DNA of 28,075 nt from a virus (lineage: Duplodnaviria; Heunggongvirae; Uroviricota; Caudoviricetes), in IMG/VR virus record IMGVR_UViG_2585427787_000005. One strand, given 5' to 3'. The stretch's first letter is position 1. Each line of letters opens with the position of its first letter. The translations under genes and the position numbers were made by a program. Under the pieces are notes generated by a model that did not search any database, had not been told where the DNA came from, and saw only the letters and a list, made by a program, of their open reading frames with translations. Shown here piece after piece: positions 2,194 through 28,075 of this stretch.

Positions 2194-2522
2194 CAGTTCA
2201 CCACCTGTTCAAACTCTGCGCTGAACTCAACACGCAGCATACTGACCCGCGACGACCATTTTGCGCAGGTCACCTTTATCTGCCGCCACTCATAAGGCGG
2301 CGTCCACAGAAAGGATTTCCAGCCCCCGTGCTCTTCCAGAAACGACTCCAGTACCGTGGCCTCCTCACGGGGGACAGAAAGCGTCACGCTGTACGTTTTC
2401 AGGTTGGCATTCAGCCCGGCAGGCGCTCGCTGGGAATAGCCATCACCAAAGCGCACCTTTCTTACAGAAGGGACCGAAGCCACATCCATACCGGGTTTCA
2501 CTTTCCAGCGGAAGGTCTTCAT
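2193..2522 (-). CDS. M: Tail tip assembly protein M
   Basis: 109-aa ORF MKTFRWKVKPGMDVASVPSVRKVRFGDGYSQRAPAGL, recalled lambda gpM. ATGA overlap with the H stop. Confidence 0.93.
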   Translation of the reverse strand: MKTFRWKVKPGMDVASVPSVRKVRFGDGYSQRAPAGLNANLKTYSVTLSVPREEATVLESFLEEHGGWKSFLWTPPYEWRQIKVTCAKWSSRVSMLRVEFSAEFEQVVN

Positions 2523-5080
2523 CGTCCACCTCCGGAGAACAGGCCACCATCACGCATCTGTGTCTGAATTTCATCACGGGCACCCTTGCGGGCCATGTCA
2601 TACACTGCCTTCATCATCTGTGGACCTGGCAGACCATTCGTACCGTCGTTCTGAATCACCACGTGATTGTTCTGATTAAAATTAATGCCTTCAGCCCGCC
2701 GCATCTGCGCCGGACTTCCGGCACCGCCCACATAACCACCTTCCGCATAGCCCCGCATCAGGCGGTACAGGTTGCCCACGCCAATCCGGCTGGTTGCCTC
2801 CTTCGTGAAGACAAACTCACCACGGTGAACAATCCCCGCTGGCTCATATTTGCCGCCGGTTCCCGTAAATCCTCCGGTCGCAAAATGGAATTTCGCCGCA
2901 GCGGCCTGAATGGCTGTACCGCCTGACGCGGATGCGCCGCCACCAACAGCCCCGCCAATGGCGCTGCCGATACTCCCGACAATCCCCACCATTGCCTGCT
3001 TAAGCAGAATTTCTGTCATCATGGACAGCACGGAACGGGTGAAGCTGCGCCAGTTCTGCTCACTGCCGGTCAGCATCGCCGCCATATTCTGCGCAATACC
3101 ATCAAAGGTCTGCGCGGCTGCACTTTTAACCTGCGACATACTGTCCGTGGCGCTCTCTTCCCACTCACACCAGCCGGACTTCAGGCCTGCCATCCAGTTC
3201 CCGCGAAGCTGGTCTTCAGCCGCCCAGGTCTTTTTCTGCTCTGACATGACGTTATTCAGCGCCAGCGGATTATCGCCATACTGTTCCTTCAGGCGCTGTT
3301 CCGTGGCTTCCCGTTCTGCCTGCCGGTCAGTCACCCCCCGGCTTTTCGCATCAATGGCGGCCCGTTTTGCCCGTTGCTGCTGTGCGAATTTATCCGCCTG
3401 CTGCGCCAGCGCGTTCAGGCGCTCCTGATACGTAACCTTGTCGCCAAGTGCAGCCAGCTGGCGTTTGTACTCCAGCGTCTCATCTTTATGCGCCAGCAGG
3501 GATTTCTCCTGTGCGGATAGCTGGCGACGTTGTGCCGCCTCCTCCAGTACCGCGAACTGATTTTCAGCCTTCCACAAATCCCGGCGCTGCTGGCTGATTT
3601 TCTCATTCGCTCCGGCATGCTTCTCCAGCGTCCGGAGTTCTGCCTGAAGCGTCAGCAGGGCAGCATGAGCACTGTCTTCCTGACGATCGCCCGCAGACAC
3701 TTTCACGCCGGACTGTTTCGGCTTTTTCAGCGTCGCTTCATAGTCCTTTTTCGCCGCCGCCATCAGCGTGTTGTAATCTGCCTGCAGAATTTTCCCGTCC
3801 TTCAGTGCCTTGTTCAGTTCTTCCTGACGGGCGGTATATTTCTCCAGCGGCGTCTGCAGGCGTTCATAAGCCTTCTGCGCCTCTTCGGTATATTTCAGCC
3901 GTGACGCTTCGGTATCGCTCTGCTGCTGCGCATTTTTGTCCTGTTGAGTCTGCTGCTCAGCCTTCTTTCGGGCGGCTTCAAGCGCAAGACGGGCCTTTTC
4001 ACGATCATCCCAGTAACGCGCCCGCGCTTCATCGTTAACAAAATAATCATCCTTGCGCAGATTCCAGATGTCGTCTGCTTTCTTAAACGCAGCCTCTGCC
4101 TTAATCAGCATCTCCTGCGCGGTATCAGGACGACCAATATCCAGCACCGCATCCCACATGGATTTGAATGCCCGTGCTGTCCTGTCTGCCCAGGTCTCCA
4201 GCGTGCCCATGTTCTCTTTCAGGCGGCGGGTCTGGTCATCAAACCCTTTCGTTGCGGCCTCGTTCGCCGCCTGCAATGCCCCGGCTTCATCGCCGGAACG
4301 CTGCAACTGAGCAACATACGCAATCTGCTCCGCCGTCACGTTATGGAACTGGCGTGCCATCGCCGTCAGCCCCGACGTCGGGTCTGTGGTCAGCTTCCCG
4401 AAGGCTTCAGCGACCTTGTCCACCTCCACGCCGGATGCAGAGGAGAAACGCGCCACACTCTGGCTGATGGACGCAATCTGAGCCTCACCGCTTACCCCCG
4501 CCTTAACCAGTGCGCTGAGTGACTCGCTGGTCTGGTTAAACGTCAGCCCTGCCGCCTGCCCGGCTCTGGACAGGGCCAGAATACGATCTGCCGTCAGTCC
4601 CGCCTGATTGCCGGAAAGGACCAGCGTTTTGTTGAAATCGGACAGGGTTGAGTTGCCCTGATACCAGGCATACGCCAGCGCACCGGTCGCCACCGCCAGC
4701 GAGGTGGCCCCCACCATCGGCAGGGTGATCGCACCGGCAAGCCCCCTGAACATGGGGATCATCCCGCCGAAGGAGTCCTTAACCTGACCCCCCTGTTGCA
4801 GCAGGATCAGCCACGGACTTTGCCCGCCTGCAAGCTGCGTGGCCACGTCGGTGAACTGTGCAGGCAGCATACGCATGGCGGCTTTATACTGCCCGACGGA
4901 AATCCCCGCTTTCTGTGCAGCCAGCGCCTGTCGGCTCAGCGACTGTTCAACGACTGCCGCTGTTTTTTTCGCATCAGTTTCCGTACCGGAAAAATGACGC
5001 CTGACTCTGGCCATCTGCTCGTCAAATCTGGCCGCATCCAGACTTAAATCAACGACCAGATCGCCTACCGGTTCAGCCAT
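2519..5080 (-). CDS. H: Tail tape-measure protein H
   Basis: 853-aa ORF MAEPVGDLVVDLSLDAARFDEQMARVRRHF, the same length as lambda gpH. Long coiled-coil middle and Gly-rich C-terminal region. Confidence 0.95.
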   Translation of the reverse strand: MAEPVGDLVVDLSLDAARFDEQMARVRRHFSGTETDAKKTAAVVEQSLSRQALAAQKAGISVGQYKAAMRMLPAQFTDVATQLAGGQSPWLILLQQGGQVKDSFGGMIPMFRGLAGAITLPMVGATSLAVATGALAYAWYQGNSTLSDFNKTLVLSGNQAGLTADRILALSRAGQAAGLTFNQTSESLSALVKAGVSGEAQIASISQSVARFSSASGVEVDKVAEAFGKLTTDPTSGLTAMARQFHNVTAEQIAYVAQLQRSGDEAGALQAANEAATKGFDDQTRRLKENMGTLETWADRTARAFKSMWDAVLDIGRPDTAQEMLIKAEAAFKKADDIWNLRKDDYFVNDEARARYWDDREKARLALEAARKKAEQQTQQDKNAQQQSDTEASRLKYTEEAQKAYERLQTPLEKYTARQEELNKALKDGKILQADYNTLMAAAKKDYEATLKKPKQSGVKVSAGDRQEDSAHAALLTLQAELRTLEKHAGANEKISQQRRDLWKAENQFAVLEEAAQRRQLSAQEKSLLAHKDETLEYKRQLAALGDKVTYQERLNALAQQADKFAQQQRAKRAAIDAKSRGVTDRQAEREATEQRLKEQYGDNPLALNNVMSEQKKTWAAEDQLRGNWMAGLKSGWCEWEESATDSMSQVKSAAAQTFDGIAQNMAAMLTGSEQNWRSFTRSVLSMMTEILLKQAMVGIVGSIGSAIGGAVGGGASASGGTAIQAAAAKFHFATGGFTGTGGKYEPAGIVHRGEFVFTKEATSRIGVGNLYRLMRGYAEGGYVGGAGSPAQMRRAEGINFNQNNHVVIQNDGTNGLPGPQMMKAVYDMARKGARDEIQTQMRDGGLFSGGGR

Positions 5081-17869: not shown

Positions 17870-18458
17870 AACCCCACCTCGCAGACAAAGCGGGTGTAAA
17901 TTGAGGGAATACAACGTATCGCAAAAAAGCAGAAACGTAACAGACTCGGAGTCAGTGAATAACTCAGGTATTGAGTTATCAGCTAATATCGAGACTCAAA
18001 AAATGGAAAAACCAGCTCGACGGCGGGTTTAAGCTGTGTGACGAAGTAACCACTCTTAACAGCATAACCAATTTTTTACGTACGTAAACCACTGAATGAT
18101 ATTTATGAGAATGCTACCGAGTGTTCAAAACACCACCACAAATACATAAGAAAACCTCAACAAATAACCAATAAATAATTTCCGGCGTTATTTTTAGTTA
18201 ATTTAAATTAAACCATCGAATTATAGATCCCCCCATAAATAACAGGCATTAATATAAATTAGCTAATAGGTTTATTTTTGTTCAAATAAGAGCCATAAAT
18301 AGGTTTCGATAGAAAAAGTTCAGATAAAAATAGAGATCTACTTCACAAATTAAATGAGAAACTAAAACTTACATCTTGAAATAATCACATTGATTAGATG
18401 AATATTTATCGCGCAGTGACATCATTTTTTAATAATAGTTCAAAAAAAAGGGCTCACG

Positions 18459-19541
18459 ATGAAAAAATTAACAGTGGCAATTTCTGCTGTAGCTGCATCA
18501 GTACTGATGGCGATGTCTGCTCAGGCAGCTGAAATTTATAATAAAGACAGTAACAAGCTGGATCTGTACGGGAAAGTTAATGCTAAGCACTACTTCTCCT
18601 CTAATGATGCAGATGATGGTGATACTACTTATGCCCGTCTTGGCTTCAAAGGTGAAACCCAAATCAACGATCAACTGACTGGTTTCGGTCAGTGGGAATA
18701 TGAATTCAAAGGCAACCGCGCTGAATCTCAAGGTTCCTCCAAAGATAAAACCCGTCTTGCCTTCGCTGGCCTGAAATTCGGTGACTACGGCTCCATCGAT
18801 TACGGCCGTAACTACGGTGTAGCATACGACATCGGTGCGTGGACTGACGTCCTGCCAGAATTCGGTGGTGACACTTGGACTCAAACAGATGTGTTCATGA
18901 CTGGTCGCACCACTGGTGTTGCAACTTATCGTAACAACGACTTCTTTGGTCTGGTTGATGGTCTGAACTTTGCTGCTCAGTATCAGGGTAAAAATGACCG
19001 CACTGACGTAACTGAAGCTAATGGTGATGGTTTCGGTTTCTCCACTACTTATGAGTATGAAGGATTCGGTGTAGGTGCAACCTATGCTAAATCTGATCGC
19101 ACTAATAATCAGGTTATCTACGGTAACAACGGTCTGAATGCTTCTGGTCAAAATGCTGAAGTATGGGCAGCTGGTCTGAAATATGATGCGAACAACATCT
19201 ATCTGGCCACCACCTATTCTGAAACCCAGAACATGACTGTTTTTGGTAATAACCATATTGCCAACAAAGCACAAAACTTCGAAGCTGTTGCACAATATCA
19301 GTTCGACTTCGGCCTGCGTCCATCCGTTGCTTACCTGCATTCTAAAGGAAAAGACTTGGGTGTTTGGGGTGATCAGGACCTGGTTGAATATGTTGATGTA
19401 GGTGCAACCTATTACTTCAACAAAAATATGTCCACTTTTGTTGACTACAAAATCAACCTGATTGATAAGAGCGATTTCACGAAAGCATCTGGCGTTGCTA
19501 CCGATGATATCGTTGCTGTAGGTATGGTTTACCAGTTCTAA
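18459..19541 (+). CDS. nmpC: Outer-membrane porin of the OmpC/NmpC/Lc family (lysogenic-conversion moron between Q and S)
   Basis: 360-aa ORF with signal peptide [23 protein letters not shown] followed by [16 protein letters not shown] and C-terminal ...VAVGMVYQF, the classic porin terminal Phe. Opposite strand to the late genes, in the position of DLP12 nmpC / PA-2 lc. Confidence 0.93.
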
Positions 19542-21148: not shown

Positions 21149-21603
21149 TACGCCTCCTGCTTGTCGCGGAGCAGCTGGAACTCGCAGCTCTGCGGAATAG
21201 TCAGGTGGCAGCCAATATTCACCGCCCAGGCTTCAACCTTACACAGGAAGATATACATCTCTCCGGTATCAAGATCGGAGGTATGGCGTAACGACTGGAT
21301 AGTGGTGATCTCACCGGTTACGACATCAACCAGGTCTTTGGTTTCATAACCGAGATATGTGTGTTTGAGAGCATCTTTTACCCAAGCTGGAGTGGCGAAC
21401 GTTTTACCCCTGCTGATGAGGTATTCACTGATTTCGCTGTACCACATGTGGCTGAGTGCATTCTGGGAAAGACTGCGTTTCTCACGCCACGGTTTAAGCA
21501 CCATGCGAAAGCATTTGCCTTCCTCCAGATAAGGCTGGATCTGCTGGCCGATAGCGGTGAAGTTACCACGATGCAATTTGATGCCGTCTTGTGGGAGGTT
21601 CAC
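21148..21603 (-). CDS. ybcN: YbcN-like nin-region protein
   Basis: 151-aa ORF (GTG start) [55 protein letters not shown] with GGAGGTG ribosome-binding site. Same order ybcN-ninE-ybcO-rusA-ylcG-Q as recalled for DLP12. Confidence 0.88.
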
Positions 21604-21636
21604 GCTTCACCTCCGCAGAGGTCAAACGCTGGATGC

Positions 21637-21721
21637 AAAAAATCGCAGGTGCATCTCTGCATCTGTGAAGGGAGAAGAGAGTTTGGATTGTATGTGCGCA
21701 TAAACGTCCCCGTTTAGCGCA
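21637..21721. repeat. 85-bp direct repeat, copy A (just upstream of ybcN)
   Basis: AAAAAATCGCAGGTGCATCTCTGCATCTGTGAAGGGAGAAGAGAGTTTGGATTGTATGTGCGCATAAACGTCCCCGTTTAGCGCA differs from copy B (23571..23655) at 5 of 85 positions. Ends in an imperfect 10-bp hairpin GCGCATAAACG-tcccc-CGTTTAGCGC. Confidence 0.9.
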
Positions 21722-21797
21722 GAAGTCACCGGAGTTGTTCAAGCTCCAATGGCATGATTATGGCTGGTTGATTATTGGAAATCAAATGTGCTGAAAA

Positions 21798-22307
21798 TTA
21801 GTCTGCCAAGTCTTCCTCAGTCGCAACTGGGTAATTCCAAATATCAAAAAAAGCTATAGCCTCCTGCCATTTGCTCCATAAGTTATCAAGTACTTGTGTA
21901 GGTTCCGTACTTTTAAAAACAGAATCAGCCGCATCACCGTTATGAACTTCCTCGTACAGTTCCATTATTAGCAGATTAACAAAGTACTGTTTCAACATTA
22001 ATGCCTGATTACCTTCTTTCTGCTGGCTATCCTGCTTGATGAGCTCCATCGCCCGTACTAGGCACCTGATGATATCCGCTGCATCATTAACGCTCCATTC
22101 AGATCCGCGCTTATCTTTAGCTGATGAATTGGCTCTCTCAGCGCAAGCCTTTAAAGACTCATAAAGGTAAACTCTATTTTGTAGCTGCAGCGCTTTTTTT
22201 GACGTGCACCAACTTGCAAGCGCCGACCCCGCTGCGGCTAATGTGCCAAACGCAGAAATGCCTGCTGCTATTGCACTTAAGTCGGCACTGTCAAAGTTCC
22301 ACATCAT
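21798..22307 (-). CDS. Hypothetical membrane-anchored protein (169 aa), function unknown
   Basis: ORF MMWNFDSADLSAIAAGISAFGTLAAAGSALASWCTSKK with one predicted N-terminal transmembrane helix followed by a charged, probably helical domain. No family recognised by eye. Confidence 0.7.
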   Translation of the reverse strand: MMWNFDSADLSAIAAGISAFGTLAAAGSALASWCTSKKALQLQNRVYLYESLKACAERANSSAKDKRGSEWSVNDAADIIRCLVRAMELIKQDSQQKEGNQALMLKQYFVNLLIMELYEEVHNGDAADSVFKSTEPTQVLDNLWSKWQEAIAFFDIWNYPVATEEDLAD

Positions 22308-22472
22308 CGTTACACCTTATATAAACACCCCTCAGTAATATCCAATAAGGTATGTGAACAATCAATATAATTTATATCCGTATCGGCACATAGCGATTTT
22401 AATGCTACTGATAATGGTATCTTTTAGATTATATCGTCCAGTTCCAGTACCCGTATTTTATGAAATGGACTC

Positions 22473-22512
22473 GCACATTACCAAAAAAAATGCCAGCACT
22501 TCCGTCATCGCA
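22473..22512 (-). terminator. Rho-independent terminator between the Bro-N-like gene and the 169-aa gene
   Basis: Minus strand reads GCCAGCA-ttctgcgatgacggaag-TGCTGGC followed by ATTTTTTTTGG. 7-bp stem at 22482..22488 and 22506..22512 with a long 17-nt loop, which weakens the call. Confidence 0.6.
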
Positions 22513-22542
22513 GAATGCTGGCAGTATTTCTAACTAGTGACT

Positions 22543-23151
22543 TTATTGCAACAGATTCTGACGGAAATATGGTAACACACGACTCCACTTATCATCCTGC
22601 CACGGTTGGAATTTTACATGCGCCGTTTCTCTGGCAAGGATTTCTCGCGCCCTGTTGAGTATCCGAGGATATTCTTGTTCGATTGAAGTGAATCTACCTG
22701 CTTCGCGATGCTCTGCGACCTGAAGAAGGGGCGTAACGTTCTGGCAGGCGGTTAACATCGTATCACTTGCTCGCCATAACCAGGCGAGTGTGCAAAGTTC
22801 GTTATCAGTGAATTGTTTTGTGATTGGGGATTGTTGAACTTCTCGATCGAGAATATCCAGAACCCAGCGGCGGAATTCTTTGGCCACAGGAGTACGAGCA
22901 AACATGGCGATCAAATGGGCTCCGCGAAGGCTAAATACTCGAGACTCCTGCATTCCACGAGGGGTGGTCACTTTGACCACCCTTGTCATCATATCTGTGA
23001 ATTCATCTGAGTGCCGAGAGTAAATGCGCTGAACTGCTTTATCGTCCGCATATTCCAGTGCTAAACCAACTTCAGTGGCAGTAAGCCAAATTCTGTTATT
23101 GTGGCAAATCGGGGTAAACGTCGTTTTGTGGAATGCTAATTGAGTAGTCAT
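22543..23151 (-). CDS. Bro-N-like domain protein (antirepressor / Roi-like family candidate)
   Basis: 202-aa ORF MTTQLAFHKTTFTPICHNNRIWLTATEVGLALEYADDKAVQRIYSRHSDEF...RVFSLRGAHLIAMFARTPVAKEFRRWVLDIL. Matches the recalled Bro-N consensus pattern (W-x-x-A-x-[DE]-V-x-x-x-L, then S-E-x-G-[LV]-Y-x-L-I, then A-x-x-F-x-x-W-V). Family assignment is by eye. Confidence 0.65.
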   Translation of the reverse strand: MTTQLAFHKTTFTPICHNNRIWLTATEVGLALEYADDKAVQRIYSRHSDEFTDMMTRVVKVTTPRGMQESRVFSLRGAHLIAMFARTPVAKEFRRWVLDILDREVQQSPITKQFTDNELCTLAWLWRASDTMLTACQNVTPLLQVAEHREAGRFTSIEQEYPRILNRAREILARETAHVKFQPWQDDKWSRVLPYFRQNLLQ

Positions 23152-23414
23152 AGTATCACCTCATCAGGTTAACCATCACCACCAACGACGCCAATCGACT
23201 GGTGGTGAACTGTGTAAGGTTGGCGTAACCGGCTACTCAAACCCGGCGCTTCCGAAGAAGCCCTCACACAGCCCACCATAATTTGGGCATAGCCGTGCTT
23301 AGCGCACAAAAAAACCGCTTAACGCGGTATGCGTTGAGTAGTATCCCGGGACGCCAATCCCGTGTGCCGATTTTGCGGCAACGCACAGAATATAGCGCCG
23401 GATAAATCATGTCG

Positions 23415-23504
23415 TCAACCCCAGTAAATGGACACCATGATGATCACAGCCATAGCTGCTACAACAGTTACAACTACCTCAGGCCAAAACATAACGATTT
23501 CCAT
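23415..23504 (-). CDS. Candidate small hydrophobic peptide (29 aa; alternative 25-aa start at 23492)
   Basis: Minus-strand ORF ATG GAA ATC GTT ATG TTT TGG... gives MEIVMFWPEVVVTVVAAMAVIIMVSIYWG, a single transmembrane-like helix. AAGGTGA lies just upstream. Immediately downstream of repeat copy B. Below the ORF-track cutoff. Confidence 0.3.
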   Translation of the reverse strand: MEIVMFWPEVVVTVVAAMAVIIMVSIYWG

Positions 23505-23570
23505 ATCACCTTTAGCCGCCAGACGAATAGAGACTCCCAATTCTGGCTGTCGAAGTAAAACACCGAATGT

Positions 23571-23655
23571 AAAAAATCGTAGGTGCATTTCTGCATCTGT
23601 GAATGGAGATGAGAGTTTGGATTGTGTGTGCGCATAAACGTCCCCGTTTAGCGCA
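23571..23655. repeat. 85-bp direct repeat, copy B
   Basis: AAAAAATCGTAGGTGCATTTCTGCATCTGTGAATGGAGATGAGAGTTTGGATTGTGTGTGCGCATAAACGTCCCCGTTTAGCGCA. See copy A. Confidence 0.9.
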
Positions 23656-23963
23656 ACCCCACCACCGGGTGTTCAGGCCGACAGTAACTATATTATTCCC
23701 TACTGATTTTTGAAAATCAAAGGTCTTTATACGTCACACGAGAGCAAATATTTCCGAAGAAGAAACCTTTCGCCTTGAAAGGATAAAGAGTTCATTTCAT
23801 AAATTGAAATATTCAATAAGAATATTGCAAAAAATGAAATTATTTACTAGCGAGTCTATCTAACTGATAATTATGAAGATTGTAAGCGGTAGCAATCACC
23901 CGCATACACATTGAACAGGATTTAATACAAAACGTCTTAAATTGTCCGTAAGGAATAGCACGA

Positions 23964-25466
23964 ATGACTCAAACTCCTCTATTACTTGCAATCATATTTT
24001 TATTGGTTGTTCTTGTTCTTTATATAGCTGCAATCAAACGCATCAAAAAAATACAATTAGAATTAAGTGATAGCAATCAAAAAAATGAAGAATACAAATC
24101 TCGCTTTGCAGATTATTTTAATGTAGAAGAAGAATGTAAGAAGCTTATTGAGAAAACAGAGCAAGAATGCTCCATAATAAAAGAAGAATCCCTAAAAGTA
24201 AAAGAAAATGCCAATAATGAACTAACAAACACCATTGAAAAAATGGATGGTATCAATAAACAAATCCAAGAGCTAAGAAGAACTTATAAAGAGAAGAAAG
24301 AAATATATGATAAACTAGTAAGGCAAATTTCTATTTATTCAGAAGATGTTGAGCTAGCCGAACTAGGATTTTACGAACCTCATTTTAATTTTGAAGATTC
24401 AGAGCAATTTAAAAACAAAATAAAATCCATCAGGGATGAACAGAAATTAATGCTGCGGGATAAAACCCACTCTGGCGCAGTATATTGTACAACCCAATGG
24501 ACTGTTGAAGGCTCTCGAGCAGAGGGTAAAAAAATGACAGACAGAAATATCAGGCTAACTACTAGAGCATTTAATAATGAATGTGATGCTGCAATTAGCA
24601 ATTGCACGTGGAAAAACATCACTAAAATGGAAGAACGCATCACAAAGGCATTTGAGGCCATAAATAAACTAAACGAGCAAAATCACATATATATAAACAC
24701 TAAATACCTCAATAAAAAACTTGAGGAATTGTGGCTTACCCATGAATATCGTGAGCAAAAACAGAAAGAAAAAGAAGAACAGGCAGAAATAAGGGCACAA
24801 ATGAGAGAGGAGGAGCGTGCACAACGAGAAATAGAAAAGGCCATGCAAGACGCAGAGGCAGAAGAGCGCCGTTATAAAAAAGCAATTGAAGCTGCAAGAA
24901 AGGAAATGGAAAAAGTTACTGGTGACATGAAGCAGCGCCTCGAAAATCGCATTGCCGAACTAGAACAGAGTTTGTCGCAGGCTGAATCAAAGCATCAAAG
25001 AGCATTATCCATGGCACAACAAACCAAACAAGGTCATGTTTATATTATTTCGAACATAGGTTCTTTTGGGGAGAATGTTTATAAAATAGGCATGACACGA
25101 CGTCTTGATCCGCAAGACCGTGTAAATGAGCTCGGTGATGCATCTGTTCCTTTTATTTTTGATGTACATGCCATGATTTATTCGGAGGACGCTCCATCAT
25201 TAGAAAAAAAACTACATGATGTCTTCGATAAAAAGAGAGTCAATCTTGTAAATCGTAGAAAAGAGTTTTTCTATGTTACTCTGGATGAGATCAAAGAAGC
25301 TGTTAAAAAACACTCTGATTCAGAAATTGAATTTATTGAGACAGCAGTCGCAAAAGACTTTAATGAGTCATTGGCTATTCGTAATCATGAAAATAAAAAA
25401 AGTGACAACAGCAACTCATCAATTATACCTGAGCGAAAAACCCCAGAGTTTGCAGATGCAATTTAA
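23964..25466 (+). CDS. AT-rich cargo protein (500 aa): N-terminal transmembrane anchor, coiled-coil segments, central DUF4041-like region and C-terminal GIY-YIG-like (T5orf172-type) putative nuclease domain
   Basis: ORF MTQTPLLLAIIFLLVVLVLYIAAIKRIKK (transmembrane helix). Lys/Glu-rich coiled coils (e.g. EYREQKQKEKEEQAEIRAQMREEERAQREIEKAM). C-terminal GHVYIISNIGSFGENVYKIGMTRRLDPQDRVNELGDASVPFIFDVHAMIYSEDAPSLEKKLH has GIY-YIG-like spacing (VYI...10 aa...YKIG, then Arg, then Glu). Composition is visibly AT-rich against the flanking phage DNA, and the gene is on the opposite strand. Domain names are from recall. Confidence 0.85.
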   Translation: MTQTPLLLAIIFLLVVLVLYIAAIKRIKKIQLELSDSNQKNEEYKSRFADYFNVEEECKKLIEKTEQECSIIKEESLKVKENANNELTNTIEKMDGINKQIQELRRTYKEKKEIYDKLVRQISIYSEDVELAELGFYEPHFNFEDSEQFKNKIKSIRDEQKLMLRDKTHSGAVYCTTQWTVEGSRAEGKKMTDRNIRLTTRAFNNECDAAISNCTWKNITKMEERITKAFEAINKLNEQNHIYINTKYLNKKLEELWLTHEYREQKQKEKEEQAEIRAQMREEERAQREIEKAMQDAEAEERRYKKAIEAARKEMEKVTGDMKQRLENRIAELEQSLSQAESKHQRALSMAQQTKQGHVYIISNIGSFGENVYKIGMTRRLDPQDRVNELGDASVPFIFDVHAMIYSEDAPSLEKKLHDVFDKKRVNLVNRRKEFFYVTLDEIKEAVKKHSDSEIEFIETAVAKDFNESLAIRNHENKKSDNSNSSIIPERKTPEFADAI

Positions 25467-25714
25467 TTAATTTGTAGTAGCAATAAAGCAGGCATCGTTG
25501 AGAATATTTTGTCAGCGATGCTTACTTCTCTAACAAAAACGGTGATTACCAACGAACTAACGGACTTCAGGTAATCATAAGACAAATGGAACGACTCTCC
25601 GGTGATTAGATCCCTGCAATAACAGTAATTTTCTACTAACTGAAAAATCTTTAACTGCCGCTCCTATTTCTAAGCTGACTGCTAGATTACATGGTGTGTT
25701 ACCGATGAAAACCG

Positions 25715-26017
25715 TCACAGCAAGTTTAAGTTCATATCTCCATACACTGCCAACACTCGTTTCATCGCGGCACTCTGGCGACACTCCTTGAAAATCAGAT
25801 TCGTGCTCACCTTTCCTTCCCGTTCTTCCCTGGTAGCGAACCGGTAATACACCGTTCGCCAGACCTTACCATCAACGACCAAGATTCCTGCCCGTGCCAT
25901 TTTAGCCGCAGCCTGATTTATACTGGTTACTGTTGCGCCTGTTACCGCAGCAACGTCCTGCGCACAGAAGCTCTTATGCGTCCCCAGGTAATGAATAATT
26001 GCCTCTTTGCCCGTCAT
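25715..26017 (-). CDS. ren: Ren (Rex-exclusion escape protein)
   Basis: 100-aa ORF MTGKEAIIHYLGTHKSFCAQDVAAVTGATVTSINQAAAKMARAGILVVDGKVWRTVYYRFATREEREGK, recalled lambda Ren with a divergent C-terminus. Overlaps the P stop. Confidence 0.88.
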   Translation of the reverse strand: MTGKEAIIHYLGTHKSFCAQDVAAVTGATVTSINQAAAKMARAGILVVDGKVWRTVYYRFATREEREGKVSTNLIFKECRQSAAMKRVLAVYGDMNLNLL

Positions 26018-26715
26018 ACAGTTGCTCCTTTCAGTCCGAACTTCGCTTTGATTTCTGCGATCTTCGCCAGAGCCTGTGCACGATTTAGAGGTCTACCGCC
26101 CATGACAGGAAGTTGTTTTACTGGTTCAGGTATCGCCTCACCACGGTTAATTCGCGCGGTCATACAAGTCAGTTCATCGGCAGCCTTGCGCCGTAATTCC
26201 GCATCAGTAAGCGCATTGGCCCGCATGTTCTGATACAGGTTGGTAACCAGCCAGTAGTGCGCGTTTGATTTCCACGGATAAGACTCTGCATCTGGATACA
26301 GGCCACGTTTCCGGCAATACTCGTAAACCATATCAACCAGCTCGCTGGCGTTTGGCAGCCCGGCGGTAACGGATGCTTCTTCCCGGCACCAGGCAACAAA
26401 CTGCCCGGGTGATGGCAGGAATGGTCGATTCTGCCGACGGGCTACGCGCATTCCTGCGTCAACCTGTTCCATCGTGGTGATCCCGTTTTCCCGGAAAGCC
26501 AGAACCCACTGGCGGCGGATTTCGTTCAGTTCGTTCTGGTCCCGGTTAGCCAGGCTCGCCGGGAAAGTTGCCAGTAACTGGCTGAACACACCATTGATGA
26601 TCTGCGCTACCTGTTGTACCTGCGGCTTTTCGTCGTACTGTTCCGGCATGTTGTTGGCGATCCGGCGCATCTGCTCACGGTCAAAGTTAACCATCTGTGC
26701 GGCGATGTTTTTCAT
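26014..26715 (-). CDS. P: Replication protein P (DnaB helicase loader)
   Basis: 233-aa ORF MKNIAAQMVNFDREQMRRIANNMPEQYDEKPQVQQVAQIINGVFSQL, the same length as lambda P. Confidence 0.93.
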   Translation of the reverse strand: MKNIAAQMVNFDREQMRRIANNMPEQYDEKPQVQQVAQIINGVFSQLLATFPASLANRDQNELNEIRRQWVLAFRENGITTMEQVDAGMRVARRQNRPFLPSPGQFVAWCREEASVTAGLPNASELVDMVYEYCRKRGLYPDAESYPWKSNAHYWLVTNLYQNMRANALTDAELRRKAADELTCMTARINRGEAIPEPVKQLPVMGGRPLNRAQALAKIAEIKAKFGLKGATV

Positions 26716-27641
26716 AAATCCACCCCGTAAATCCAGTCAGTGTTTGTCAGGTCGAGTTTTGATTTTCCGGCTATCACGCCAGCCTGTTGCTTGTTACGGT
26801 TGATTTCGAGTTGGGTCCACTTGTCGCGGAGTTTGGCCGGACTTAGCACGTTACCGGACCAGAAGTTGTCCTGGCATGCCCAGCGGAACAGCACGCACAT
26901 GTCGCGGTGGTTACGGCCGTCACGTTCACGCATCAGGCGGATATCGTTAGCCCACCCTGCAAAATTCGGTTTTCTGGCTGATGGCGCGATGGTCTTCACC
27001 ATGTCAAACATCCACTCTGCGGCGGTCAGGTCTTCTGCTGTCCCCCACCTGCTGCCGCTCTGAATTGCAGCATCTGGTTTCTCCACAGGAAGATCGTTTT
27101 CTGGTTGGTCAGAGGATTCGCCAGAATTCTCGGACGAAAAAGGTTTTATATTGTCTTTTGTTAGTTTGTCTTTTGTGTTTACCTGATTCGGGTAAGTGCC
27201 TTTACCTGATTTGGGTAAACTTTTCTTACCTGATTCAGGTAAATTTACCTCTTTCAGGTAAACTTTATTTTTCTTACCTGATTCGGGTAATGTTGACCAT
27301 TCACTGACCACATTATTAATGCCGATATTCCGCCCGCTCTGAATAAAAATCCCACGCTTTACCAGAACACTTTTTGCAGCAGAACACTTGTGCGGCAATA
27401 TCCCGGTCAACTCGGAAAGTTGCTCGTTGCTCACCCAATCCAGTTTTTTATTAAAGCCATATGTTTTGCGCATGACAGCCAGGAAGACCAGAAGCTGGTG
27501 CTGTGTTAATCCGGCCAGCATCACAGCTTCCAGCAACTCATTTGCAATGCGCGTATAACCATCATCGAGATCTGCCACGCGCGGCTCCTTTTGTGCCGCA
27601 TCCGGCACTGGAAAATTGAATATCTCAGCAGTGTTTGCCAT
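26712..27641 (-). CDS. O: Replication initiator O (divergent N-terminal DNA-binding half, lambda-like C-terminal P-interaction half)
   Basis: 309-aa ORF MANTAEIFNFPVPDAAQKEPRVADLDDGY... with C-terminal ...EWMFDMVKTIAPSARKPNFAGWANDIRLMRERDGRNHRDMCVLFRWACQDNFWSGNVLSPAKLRDKWTQLEINRNKQQAG matching recalled lambda O. GGGAGGAA ribosome-binding site. Contains the ori iterons. Confidence 0.92.
   Translation of the reverse strand: MANTAEIFNFPVPDAAQKEPRVADLDDGYTRIANELLEAVMLAGLTQHQLLVFLAVMRKTYGFNKKLDWVSNEQLSELTGILPHKCSAAKSVLVKRGIFIQSGRNIGINNVVSEWSTLPESGKKNKVYLKEVNLPESGKKSLPKSGKGTYPNQVNTKDKLTKDNIKPFSSENSGESSDQPENDLPVEKPDAAIQSGSRWGTAEDLTAAEWMFDMVKTIAPSARKPNFAGWANDIRLMRERDGRNHRDMCVLFRWACQDNFWSGNVLSPAKLRDKWTQLEINRNKQQAGVIAGKSKLDLTNTDWIYGVDL
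27120..27279. repeat. Lambdoid replication origin inside O: five 17-bp palindromic iterons plus adjacent AT-rich region
   Basis: Iterons TTACCTGATTCGGGTAA (27168..27184), TTACCTGATTTGGGTAA (27191..27207), TTACCTGATTCAGGTAA (27215..27231), TTACCTCTTTCAGGTAA (27234..27250), TTACCTGATTCGGGTAA (27263..27279). AT-rich tract 27120..27167 with repeated TGTCTTTTGT. Confidence 0.88.
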
Positions 27642-27676
27642 AATTCCTCCCGCAATGAGTGTGTTACGATTTGCAC

Positions 27677-28075
27677 GGCTTTGTTGAATAAATCGAACTT
27701 TTGCTGAGTTGAAGGATCAGATCACGCATCTTCCCGACAACGCAGACCGTTCCGTGGCAAAGCAAAAGTTCAAAATCACCAACTGGCCCACCTACAATAA
27801 AGCCCTCATCAACCGTGGCTCCATAACTTTCTGGCTGGATGATGAAGCCATTCAGGCCTGGTATGAGTCGACAACGCCTTCATCACGGGGAAGACCTCAG
27901 CGCTATTCTGATCTCGCCATCACCACCGTTCTGGTCATTAAACGCGTGTTCAGGTTGACCCTGCGGGCTGCACAGGGTTTTATTGATTCCATTTTTACAC
28001 TGATGAATGTTCCGTTGCGCTGCCCGGATTACACCAGTGTCAGCAAGCGCGCAAAGTCGGTTAATGTCAGTTTCA
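27677..28075 (+). mobile_element. IS903-group (IS5 family) insertion sequence, left end only; element continues beyond the window
   Basis: Terminal inverted repeat GGCTTTGTTGAATAAATC at 27677..27694, followed by sequence recalled from IS903/Tn903 ends (CGAACTTTTGCTGAGTTGAAGGATCAGATCACGCATCTTCCCGACAACGCAGACCGTTCC). An open frame with no stop runs to the window edge. Confidence 0.8.
27709..28075 (+). CDS. IS903-type DDE transposase, N-terminal part (start codon uncertain, possibly TTG at 27709; truncated by window end)
   Basis: Frame from 27721 translates ITHLPDNADRSVAKQKFKITNWPTYNKALINRGSITFWLDDEAIQAWYESTTPSSRGRPQRYSDLAITTVLVIKRVFRLTLRAAQGFIDSIF... without stops. No ATG upstream in frame. Not in the ORF track because it lacks a stop. 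Confidence 0.7.
   Translation, partial: MKDQITHLPDNADRSVAKQKFKITNWPTYNKALINRGSITFWLDDEAIQAWYESTTPSSRGRPQRYSDLAITTVLVIKRVFRLTLRAAQGFIDSIFTLMNVPLRCPDYTSVSKRAKSVNVSF

What the first reader, a model, noticed from the sequence alone, without database searches (positions are those of the whole stretch)
23964..25466. AT-rich, oppositely oriented cargo gene: membrane-anchored coiled-coil protein with a C-terminal GIY-YIG-like nuclease domain, a candidate anti-phage / abortive-infection determinant
This 500-aa ORF is the clearest foreign insert in the prophage. Its composition is visibly AT-rich and Lys/Glu/Asn-rich against GC-balanced lambda-like DNA, it is transcribed against the surrounding early/nin genes, and it sits where lambda carries ninB-ninI. 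The architecture (one N-terminal transmembrane helix, long coiled coils, a Cys-containing central region, and a C-terminal GIY-YIG-like module) fits a membrane-tethered nuclease. Single-gene, membrane-anchored nucleases in prophage accessory slots are a recurring theme of anti-phage defence and abortive infection. I cannot assign it to a named defence system from memory, so it may be an undescribed one.
Basis: partly seen in the sequence, partly recalled or inferred. Interest (0 to 1): 0.85.

Follow-up and report, generated by a model that had tools for sequence, protein, structure and literature searches.

The report
Known anti-phage nuclease SNIPE (PD-λ-1)

Summary
The ORF is real: 23964..25466 on the + strand, 500 aa, 35% GC against 47–51% in the flanks, and opposite in orientation to ren/P/O and the nin genes.

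It is not undescribed. It matches PADLOC's PD-Lambda-1 models over their full length (E = 1.9e-198). It is identical at 500/500 aa and 1503/1503 nt to the gene annotated "PD-lambda-1" in phage PhiR26_1. ECOR26 is the source strain of PD-λ-1. All nine published mutation sites and all 26 mapped published primers fit the window exactly.

PD-λ-1 was found by functional selection (Vassallo et al. 2022). It was renamed SNIPE and its mechanism worked out by Saxton et al. (Nature 2026). SNIPE is a constitutively membrane-bound GIY-YIG nuclease that cleaves phage DNA during injection. It associates with ManYZ and with the phage tape measure protein. It gives direct defence, not abortive infection.

Verdict: observation confirmed, architecture and anti-phage role correct, abortive infection and novelty wrong. 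Already known, low interest.

The parts
23964..25466 (+). SNIPE / PD-lambda-1 coding sequence (500 aa plus stop)
   Evidence: ORF. PADLOC PD-Lambda-1 PDLC03976 E 1.9e-198 (aa 1-485 of a 491-position model) and PDLC03977 E 7e-195. 500/500 aa identical to the 'PD-lambda-1' CDS of phage PhiR26_1. 1503/1503 nt identical.
23976..24035 (+). Transmembrane anchor, aa 5-24 (PLLLAIIFLLVVLVLYIAAI); N-terminus periplasmic, the rest cytoplasmic
   Evidence: Highest Kyte-Doolittle 19-residue window starts at residue 6. The published delta-TM primers oDS47/48 join 23975 to 24036, which deletes exactly this stretch. The topology was shown by PhoA-LacZalpha fusions in PMC13190303.
24552..24719 (+). DUF4041 domain, aa 197-252: DNA binding and tape-measure-protein contact
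   Evidence: Pfam PF13250 covers aa 198-252, E 1.2e-19. The published delta-DUF4041 primers oDS51/52 join 24551 to 24720. The function comes from PMC13190303.
25032..25310 (+). C-terminal GIY-YIG-type nuclease domain (T5orf172/MUG113), aa 357-449
   Evidence: Pfam PF10544 covers aa 357-449, E 6.9e-17. PF13455 covers aa 373-449, E 7e-19. Motif-like residues are VYI at 359-361 and YKIG at 373-376.
25203..25205 (+). Codon for the catalytic Glu414 (GAA)
   Evidence: Residue 414 is E. The E414A primers oDS92/93 match the window exactly except at 25204-25205. E414A abolishes defence and DNA cleavage (PMC13190303).
23843..23871 (+). Candidate sigma-70 promoter for SNIPE (TTTACT, 17 nt, GATAAT), about 93 nt upstream of the ATG
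   Evidence: Consensus scan, 9 of 12 matches. This is an inference only. It lies inside the fragment that gave defence from its own promoter, if that clone carried 282 nt upstream.
23950..23954 (+). Ribosome-binding site AAGGA, 9 nt before the ATG
   Evidence: Read directly from the sequence.
25486..25527 (+). Imperfect hairpin 20 nt after the stop codon; possible terminator between the convergent SNIPE and ren genes
   Evidence: Inverted repeat with 19-nt arms, 79% complementary, 4-nt loop. There is no T-run, so this is weak. Its end coincides with the inferred end of the published clone (stop + 62 nt = 25528).
23675..25700 (.). AT-rich cargo block that carries SNIPE
   Evidence: GC 0.27-0.46 in 150-nt windows, against about 0.45-0.55 outside. 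Phage PhiR5_1 shares both flanks but loses homology between 22930 and 25739 and has three small + strand ORFs there instead.

Best explanation
[quoted passage not shown] This copy is the same allele that was characterised experimentally.

SNIPE is a single-gene prophage accessory gene, expressed from its own promoter in the lysogen. [quoted passage not shown] There it associates with the mannose permease ManYZ, which lambda-type phages use for DNA entry. During infection it also associates with the incoming phage's tape measure protein. DUF4041 binds DNA and contacts the tape measure protein, and the C-terminal GIY-YIG nuclease (catalytic E414) shreds the phage genome as it is injected. The cell survives, so this is direct defence. 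Host DNA is spared because the enzyme is held at the membrane in an auto-inhibited state. Already-resident prophage DNA is not attacked.

Shown here: identity, architecture and genomic context. Shown in the literature for the identical sequence: localisation, topology, cleavage during injection, the ManYZ and tape-measure associations, and the range (siphoviruses). Inferred: that it is expressed and active in this particular host, and that it works here as superinfection exclusion against lambda-like phages, including relatives of its own carrier.
For: Family and domains:
- Full-length PADLOC PD-Lambda-1 hits, E 1.9e-198 and 7e-195.
- DUF4041 plus T5orf172/MUG113, all above Pfam's cut-offs.

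Identity with the characterised protein:
- PD-lambda-1 comes from ECOR26 (QOXL01000020, RCP76574.1). Its CDS is 1503 nt, the same length as here, and its published HHsearch domains sit at 197-252, 357-448 and 373-449.
- Nine of nine residues mutated in the SNIPE paper (E414, L253, E264, K305, E223, T319, W257, I308, N250) are present at the same positions.
- The gene-specific parts of 26 of 26 published primers match exactly. They cover 561 nt and include both flanks.
- Phage PhiR26_1 carries a CDS annotated 'PD-lambda-1' that is 500/500 aa and 1503/1503 nt identical. Window 21356-27676 has no differences from that phage.
- RefSeq names a homologue 'SNIPE associated domain-containing protein'.

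Mechanism: PMC13190303 sections read.

Context: the window's own tape measure protein is 96.6% identical to lambda gpH and keeps A304. That places it in the lambda tape-measure clade, whose ManYZ-dependent members the paper reports as highly susceptible.
Against: Nothing found contradicts it. Four caveats:
1. I could not retrieve RCP76574.1 or QOXL01000020 itself, so identity to the cloned ECOR26 fragment rests on PhiR26_1, the primers, the mutated residues and the equal length. That PhiR26_1 comes from ECOR26 is inferred from its name.
2. My own structure prediction, made from the single sequence, was too poor to confirm the GIY-YIG fold (pLDDT below 50 over aa 350-440). No sequence relative has a solved structure.
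3. Expression in this host was not tested. The promoter is only a consensus match.
4. How the nuclease is activated at the injection site is still open in the literature (Discussion).
Confidence: 0.97

Rival explanations
1. Abortive-infection determinant: a membrane-tethered nuclease that is released or activated on infection, destroys host DNA, and so kills the infected cell before phage are produced.
For: Removing the membrane anchor makes the protein toxic, and it cleaves the host chromosome (PMC13190303). So the enzyme can in principle kill the cell.
Against: For the identical protein, infected cells do not lyse and grow to confluence even at high multiplicity of infection, unlike the abortive-infection control PD-lambda-3. 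Labelled phage DNA is degraded and phage genome foci drop about 30-fold. Tethering host DNA to the membrane adds no toxicity.
Confidence: 0.02
2. The gene is intact but gives no defence in this particular genome, because it is poorly expressed or because the host lacks the partners it needs. It would then be a passive passenger of a decaying prophage.
For: The prophage shows signs of decay: an IS5-family element lies just upstream of the O gene. In other E. coli genomes the same gene carries an internal stop or is split by ISEc48. The promoter is only a weak consensus match.
Against: The ORF and its flanks over 21356-27676 are base-for-base identical to an inducible, plaque-forming phage (PhiR26_1). 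The published clone defended from its own promoter in a promoterless vector. ManYZ is a standard E. coli function (my own knowledge).
Confidence: 0.05
3. It is not a defence gene. It would be either a GIY-YIG homing-endonuclease-type selfish element, or an SMC/ParA-like 'chromosome segregation ATPase', as homologues are annotated in several phage records.
For: T5orf172 is a GIY-YIG-type domain also found in phage genes (my own knowledge). Homologues are labelled 'chromosome segregation ATPase', 'AAA-ATPase' or 'ParA' in some records. There are weak hits to SMC-like coiled coils: NCBIfam ASRP at 18.6 bits against a cut-off of 300, and LmuB/JetC at E above 0.03.
Against: No ATPase domain is detected. 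The SMC-like hits fall far below the cut-offs and cover only the Glu/Lys-rich helices. Anti-phage function has been shown directly for this sequence.
Confidence: 0.01

Closest known systems
SNIPE / PD-lambda-1 of E. coli ECOR26 (Vassallo et al. 2022, PMC9519451; Saxton et al. 2026, PMC13190303)
   Same: Everything that could be tested. Length, domain order and positions, all nine mutated residues and all 26 primer sites agree. The gene is 100% identical in protein and nucleotide sequence to the 'PD-lambda-1' gene of phage PhiR26_1. The neighbours are the same too (ren on one side, the Rha/antirepressor-like gene on the other).
   Different: Nothing in the gene or in 6.3 kb around it. Only the rest of the carrier prophage differs: 28 aa differences in the tape measure protein relative to PhiR26_1, and an IS5-family element upstream of O.
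Diverged SNIPE homologues in other phages (Klebsiella phage ST13-OXA48phi12.3, Salmonella phage ES18 gp19, Clostridium phage CDMH1 gp42, streptococcal and corynebacterial phages)
   Same: DUF4041 plus a T5orf172 C-terminal half, carried by temperate phages.
   Different: Only 33-51% identical, with different or missing N-terminal regions. This fits the published finding that the N-terminus is the variable 'adapter'.
PADLOC candidate system PDC-S57
   Same: It shares the T5orf172 nuclease module (aa 354-468, E 1.7e-18).
   Different: The match covers the nuclease domain only. There is no DUF4041 or membrane-anchor match, so this is a different system.
Superinfection-exclusion proteins that block DNA entry (for example HK97 gp15, cited in PMC13190303; T4 Imm and P22 SieA from my own knowledge)
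   Same: They are prophage- or phage-encoded inner-membrane proteins that act at the genome-injection step, in the HK97 case linked to the tape measure protein and an inner-membrane host protein. This is a resemblance in how it works.
   Different: Those proteins block entry without a nuclease. SNIPE lets DNA enter and degrades it (equal 32P uptake). No sequence relationship was detected.
Restriction-modification and other direct nuclease defences
   Same: Direct cleavage of invading DNA, with survival of the cell.
   Different: Self and non-self are told apart by location (the membrane injection site), not by sequence or modification. There is no methylase partner, and plasmid transformation is not blocked.

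Membership tests
SNIPE / PD-lambda-1 defence system | Full-length match to the family's profile models | tested here: met
   PADLOC PDLC03976 E 1.9e-198 (658 bits, aa 1-485 of 491 model positions). PDLC03977 E 7e-195.
SNIPE / PD-lambda-1 defence system | Central DUF4041 domain | tested here: met
   PF13250 covers aa 198-252, 70.4 bits against a cut-off of 27. It coincides with the published delta-DUF4041 deletion, aa 197-252.
SNIPE / PD-lambda-1 defence system | C-terminal GIY-YIG-type nuclease (T5orf172/MUG113) with the catalytic Glu | tested here: met
   PF10544 scores 62.3 bits (cut-off 20) and PF13455 scores 68.6 bits (cut-off 22.3). E414 is present within SLEKK.
SNIPE / PD-lambda-1 defence system | N-terminal membrane-targeting region (one transmembrane helix in the type protein) | tested here: met
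   Hydropathy maximum of 3.37 for residues 6-24. The sequence is identical to the segment removed in the published delta-TM construct. Membrane localisation itself was not testable here and is shown in PMC13190303.
SNIPE / PD-lambda-1 defence system | Sequence identity with the experimentally characterised protein | tested here: met
   500/500 aa and 1503/1503 nt identical to the 'PD-lambda-1' gene of PhiR26_1. Nine of nine mutated residues and 26 of 26 primers agree. RCP76574.1 itself could not be retrieved.
SNIPE / PD-lambda-1 defence system | Single-gene system with no obligatory partner gene | tested here: met
   The published clone holds the CDS plus 62 and 282 nt of flank only. The neighbouring genes are ren and an antirepressor-like gene on the opposite strand, with no PADLOC hits.
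SNIPE / PD-lambda-1 defence system | Protects against lambda and other siphoviruses by cleaving DNA during injection; direct, not abortive | not testable with these tools
   Shown experimentally for the identical sequence in PMC9519451 and PMC13190303.
GIY-YIG nuclease superfamily | The GIY-YIG alpha/beta fold with conserved Tyr...Tyr, Arg, Glu and Asn residues | tested here: inconclusive
   At the sequence level, VYI (359-361), YKIG (373-376), R379/R380 and E414 are present, and the Pfam T5orf172/MUG113 hits are significant. My AlphaFold2 single-sequence model was unusable in this domain (pLDDT below 50), and there is no sequence relative in the PDB. The paper's HHpred and AlphaFold3 analysis assigns a GIY-YIG domain.
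Abortive-infection systems | The infected cell dies or stops growing, so the population is protected but the cell is not | not testable with these tools
   The published experiments on the identical protein show the opposite: infected cells survive.
SMC-like / Lamassu LmuB / Wadjet JetC / 'chromosome segregation ATPase' | ABC-type ATPase head domains flanking the coiled coil | tested here: not met
   Only sub-threshold coiled-coil hits: LmuB E 0.032, JetC E 0.15, NCBIfam ASRP 18.6 bits against a cut-off of 300. No ATPase domain in Pfam.

The most novel reading that the evidence does not exclude
The gene itself holds nothing new. The only open reading concerns its setting.

SNIPE lies convergent with, and antisense to, the PR-driven O-P-ren operon. 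It sits next to an unannotated isrK/C4 RNA plus antirepressor module. The carrier prophage has a tape measure protein of the SNIPE-sensitive lambda type.

It is therefore possible that SNIPE is a lysogeny-specific kin-exclusion gene whose expression is switched down by read-through transcription on induction. It is also possible that the ren/antirepressor junction is a general cargo slot whose other occupants are unrecognised entry-exclusion genes. One example is the three small + strand ORFs in PhiR5_1.
Probability: 0.12. Interest if true: 0.3.

Novelty: already known. Interest (0 to 1): 0.08.

Why it matters
SNIPE matters biologically because it tells self from non-self by where the DNA is (the membrane injection site) rather than by sequence or modification. 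That was established in 2022 and 2026 on this exact sequence, so this window adds another occurrence rather than a discovery. Three practical points follow:
- The locus can be annotated confidently as SNIPE/PD-λ-1. Most public records still call it "DUF4041 domain-containing protein", and some homologues are mislabelled "chromosome segregation ATPase" or "ParA".
- A reader working from raw sequence alone inferred the architecture and the defence role correctly.
- The same allele sits in 131 of 5426 complete E. coli genomes, here in a lambda-like prophage whose own virions are predicted to be sensitive to it.

Tried and rejected
1. NCBIfam gave no family-level hit, only sub-threshold coiled-coil noise.
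2. A sequence search of the PDB found no meaningful relative; the best hit was E 0.078 to a Tom20 helix.
3. AlphaFold2 on the single sequence gave mean pLDDT 55.8, and below 50 across DUF4041 and the nuclease domain. The model was unfit for a fold search, so I ran none.
4. Identity with the characterised protein already answered the question.
5. The exact-sequence cluster look-up confirmed that the protein is public and common (a 975-member cluster, on at least 1000 contigs). It did not list RCP76574.1 among the accessions shown.
6. Brenes & Laub 2025 (PMID 40409266), which described the PhiR phages, is not in the held library. Native-context data for PhiR26_1 could therefore not be read.
7. 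I considered and rejected abortive infection, an SMC/Lamassu/Wadjet-like ATPase, Zorya ZorA (E 0.12) and a homing endonuclease (see the rival explanations).
8. I first read the homology break at 27676 as an interruption of the O gene. The sequence shows instead that the O frame (26712..27641, with a GGAGG site) is intact and that the IS-type sequence begins upstream of it.

Full report
**Observation.**
- It is 35.1% GC. The neighbouring early-region DNA is 47–51% GC and the structural genes are 57%.
- At this composition, 500 stop-free codons have a chance probability of about 3e-18.
- It is transcribed opposite to every neighbouring gene: ren at 25715..26017, P at 26014..26715 and O at 26712..27641 on one side, and an antirepressor-like gene (22543..23151) and the nin genes on the other.
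- The protein is rich in Glu and Lys (E 13.6%, K 11.0%). Its most hydrophobic segment is at residues 6–24.
The gene is inserted at the ren/nin junction, and a NinB-like gene, ninE, ybcO, rusA, ylcG and Q follow it.
- The "Cys-containing central region" is five scattered cysteines with no motif.

**What it is.**
- Pfam finds DUF4041 (aa 198–252, E 1.2e-19), T5orf172 (aa 357–449, 6.9e-17) and MUG113 (aa 373–449, 7e-19).
- PADLOC gives full-length matches to both PD-Lambda-1 models: E 1.9e-198 (aa 1–485 of 491 positions) and 7e-195.
- PHROGs places it in phrog_1847, function unknown. NCBIfam has nothing.

**Identity with the characterised protein.** PD-λ-1 was isolated by functional selection from E. 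coli ECOR26 (contig QOXL01000020, protein RCP76574.1). Its CDS at 49060–50562 is 1503 nt, the same length as here. Its published HHsearch domains sit at 197–252, 357–448 and 373–449 (Vassallo et al. 2022, PMC9519451). I tested identity in three independent ways.
1. All nine residues mutated in the follow-up paper (E414, L253, E264, K305, E223, T319, W257, I308, N250) are present at the same positions.
2. The gene-specific parts of 26 of 26 published primers match the window exactly. They cover 561 nt, including 17 nt upstream of the ATG and 36 nt after the stop. Mismatches occur only at the engineered codons. The ΔTM primers delete 23976–24035 (aa 5–24), the ΔDUF4041 primers delete 24552–24719 (aa 197–252), and the E414A primers differ only at 25204–25205.
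3. Phage PhiR26_1 (PV340555.1) carries a CDS annotated "PD-lambda-1" that is 500/500 aa and 1503/1503 nt identical. Window 21356–27676 has no differences from that phage. That PhiR26_1 comes from ECOR26 is inferred from its name.

The same exact protein is public on at least 1000 contigs as "DUF4041 domain-containing protein". It occurs in 131 of 5426 complete E. coli genomes. One recent RefSeq record already uses the name "SNIPE associated domain-containing protein".

**How it works** (from Saxton et al., Nature 2026, PMC13190303; read). The authors renamed PD-λ-1 as SNIPE.
- It is a single-pass inner-membrane protein with a periplasmic N-terminus and a cytoplasmic body (PhoA-LacZα mapping).
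- It is membrane-localised constitutively.
- Defence needs both DUF4041 and the nuclease. E414A abolishes it.
- Removing the transmembrane helix sends the protein to the nucleoid, where it makes double-strand breaks and is toxic.
- DUF4041 promotes DNA binding.
- SNIPE does not alter adsorption or the amount of DNA injected. Labelled λ DNA is degraded to a smear and mononucleotides, and λ genome foci fall about 30-fold.
- An induced resident prophage is unaffected, and plasmid transformation is not blocked.
- Proximity labelling places SNIPE next to ManYZ before and during infection, and next to the λ tape measure protein during injection.
- λ-like temperate phages that depend on ManYZ are strongly blocked.
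- Most BASEL siphoviruses are weakly blocked independently of ManYZ. Myoviruses and podoviruses are not blocked.
- DUF4041 mutations that strengthen defence against Bas14 select escape mutations in the Bas14 tape measure protein, and a crosslinker at N250 captures that protein.
- Infected cells survive, so this is direct defence. The abortive-infection control PD-λ-3 behaves differently.

Because the window sequence is identical, I carry these properties over. Expression and activity in this particular host remain inferred.

**Expression signals (inferred).**
- An AAGGA ribosome-binding site lies 9 nt before the ATG.
- A σ70-like promoter match (TTTACT, 17 nt, GATAAT) lies at 23843–23871.
- An imperfect hairpin at 25486–25527 follows the stop codon.
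- If the published clone carried 282 nt upstream and 62 nt downstream, it corresponds to 23682..25528.

**Context.**
- The carrier is a λ-like prophage with λ-type head and tail genes.
- PhiR5_1 shares both flanks but loses homology between 22930 and 25739. It carries three small + strand ORFs there instead, so this is a variable cargo slot.
- The window's tape measure protein (2519..5080, − strand) is 96.6% identical to λ gpH. It keeps A304 and has a single substitution (Y332F) in residues 300–400, the region the paper links to ManYZ dependence. The differences cluster at residues 780–823.
- The carrier's own virions are therefore predicted to be SNIPE-sensitive, which makes SNIPE a superinfection-exclusion function against kin (inference).

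**Comparison and membership.** Every defining feature of SNIPE/PD-λ-1 that can be tested by computation is met (see the membership table). The biochemical features were shown in the literature for the same sequence. Other hits do not hold up:
- PDC-S57 shares only the nuclease module.
- The SMC-like, LmuB, JetC and ZorA hits are sub-threshold coiled-coil noise.
- My own test of the fold failed. The single-sequence AlphaFold2 model has pLDDT below 50 in both globular domains, and no PDB relative is found by sequence. Membership of the GIY-YIG fold therefore rests on the Pfam hits, the motif residues and the published HHpred and AlphaFold3 analysis.

**Verdict.** Abortive infection and "possibly undescribed" are wrong. 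This is the type allele of a defence system published in 2022 and explained mechanistically in 2026. Novelty: already known. Interest: low.

Noticed in passing
window 23198-23380 (- strand), with ORF 22543..23151 (-): Rfam finds a C4 antisense RNA (23198-23283, 74.8 bits) and isrK (23308-23380, 58.7 bits) directly upstream of a Bro-N/P22AR_C antirepressor-like gene (phrog_245 'anti-repressor Ant'). A strong promoter-like site (TTGACG, 18 nt, TATATT; 23418 to 23389) lies just upstream of isrK. This looks like a P1 immI-type or Gifsy isrK-type antirepressor module sitting divergently from SNIPE. The RNAs are not annotated in the RefSeq and GenBank records I looked at.
   Followed up: partly
window 21618-21721 and 23552-23655: A 104-bp direct repeat (89% identical) brackets the block that holds the 169-aa ORF, the antirepressor-like gene, C4 and isrK. 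This suggests that block was acquired or duplicated as a unit, separately from SNIPE.
   Followed up: no
window 21798..22307 (-): A conserved 169-aa ORF with a hydrophobic N-terminus. It has no Pfam or PADLOC hit and a full-length match to phrog_1779 (function unknown). It is present next to the antirepressor gene in both the SNIPE-bearing and the SNIPE-less phages.
   Followed up: partly
window about 27658-28075: Homology to all related prophages stops at 27676. The rest of the window matches IS5-family transposase elements at 97-99.5% identity. The junction lies about 20-35 nt upstream of the O start codon (27641). The O frame is therefore intact but cut off from its upstream early-operon sequence, and the prophage may be crippled while SNIPE stays intact.
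   Followed up: partly
window 2519..5080 (-): The prophage's own tape measure protein is 96.6% identical to lambda gpH, with A304 retained and 19 of the 29 differences at residues 780-823. This places the SNIPE carrier in the tape-measure clade whose ManYZ-dependent members the paper reports as highly SNIPE-sensitive. It differs at 28 residues from the PhiR26_1 protein although the SNIPE locus is identical, which points to mosaic exchange.
   Followed up: yes
L002 27448-28950 (NZ_AP045179); hit H1 (NZ_OY754364): In some E. coli genomes the SNIPE gene is decaying. There is an internal stop in strain JNEC-KY203, where it is annotated as a pseudogene, and an ISEc48 insertion splits the locus in NZ_OY754364.
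   Followed up: no
L004 4041-4756 (phage PhiR5_1), equivalent to window 22930-25739: At the same ren/antirepressor junction PhiR5_1 carries three small + strand hypothetical ORFs (318, 150 and 138 nt) instead of SNIPE. Other lambdoid phages carry different cargo near ren, including an esterase or alpha/beta hydrolase, a recombinase, QacE and an acyltransferase.
   Followed up: no
window 18001-19541: The lowest GC outside SNIPE (0.31 at 18001-18500) lies just upstream of a + strand porin gene (18459..19541), annotated OmpC, OmpD or 'porin' in related records. This is another oppositely oriented accessory gene between Q and the lysis genes.
   Followed up: no
public records of homologues: The naming is inconsistent. 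The identical protein is 'DUF4041 domain-containing protein' in most records. Homologues are labelled 'chromosome segregation ATPase', 'AAA-ATPase', 'ParA', 'putative regulatory protein' or 'putative phage membrane protein'. No ATPase domain is detectable.
   Followed up: partly
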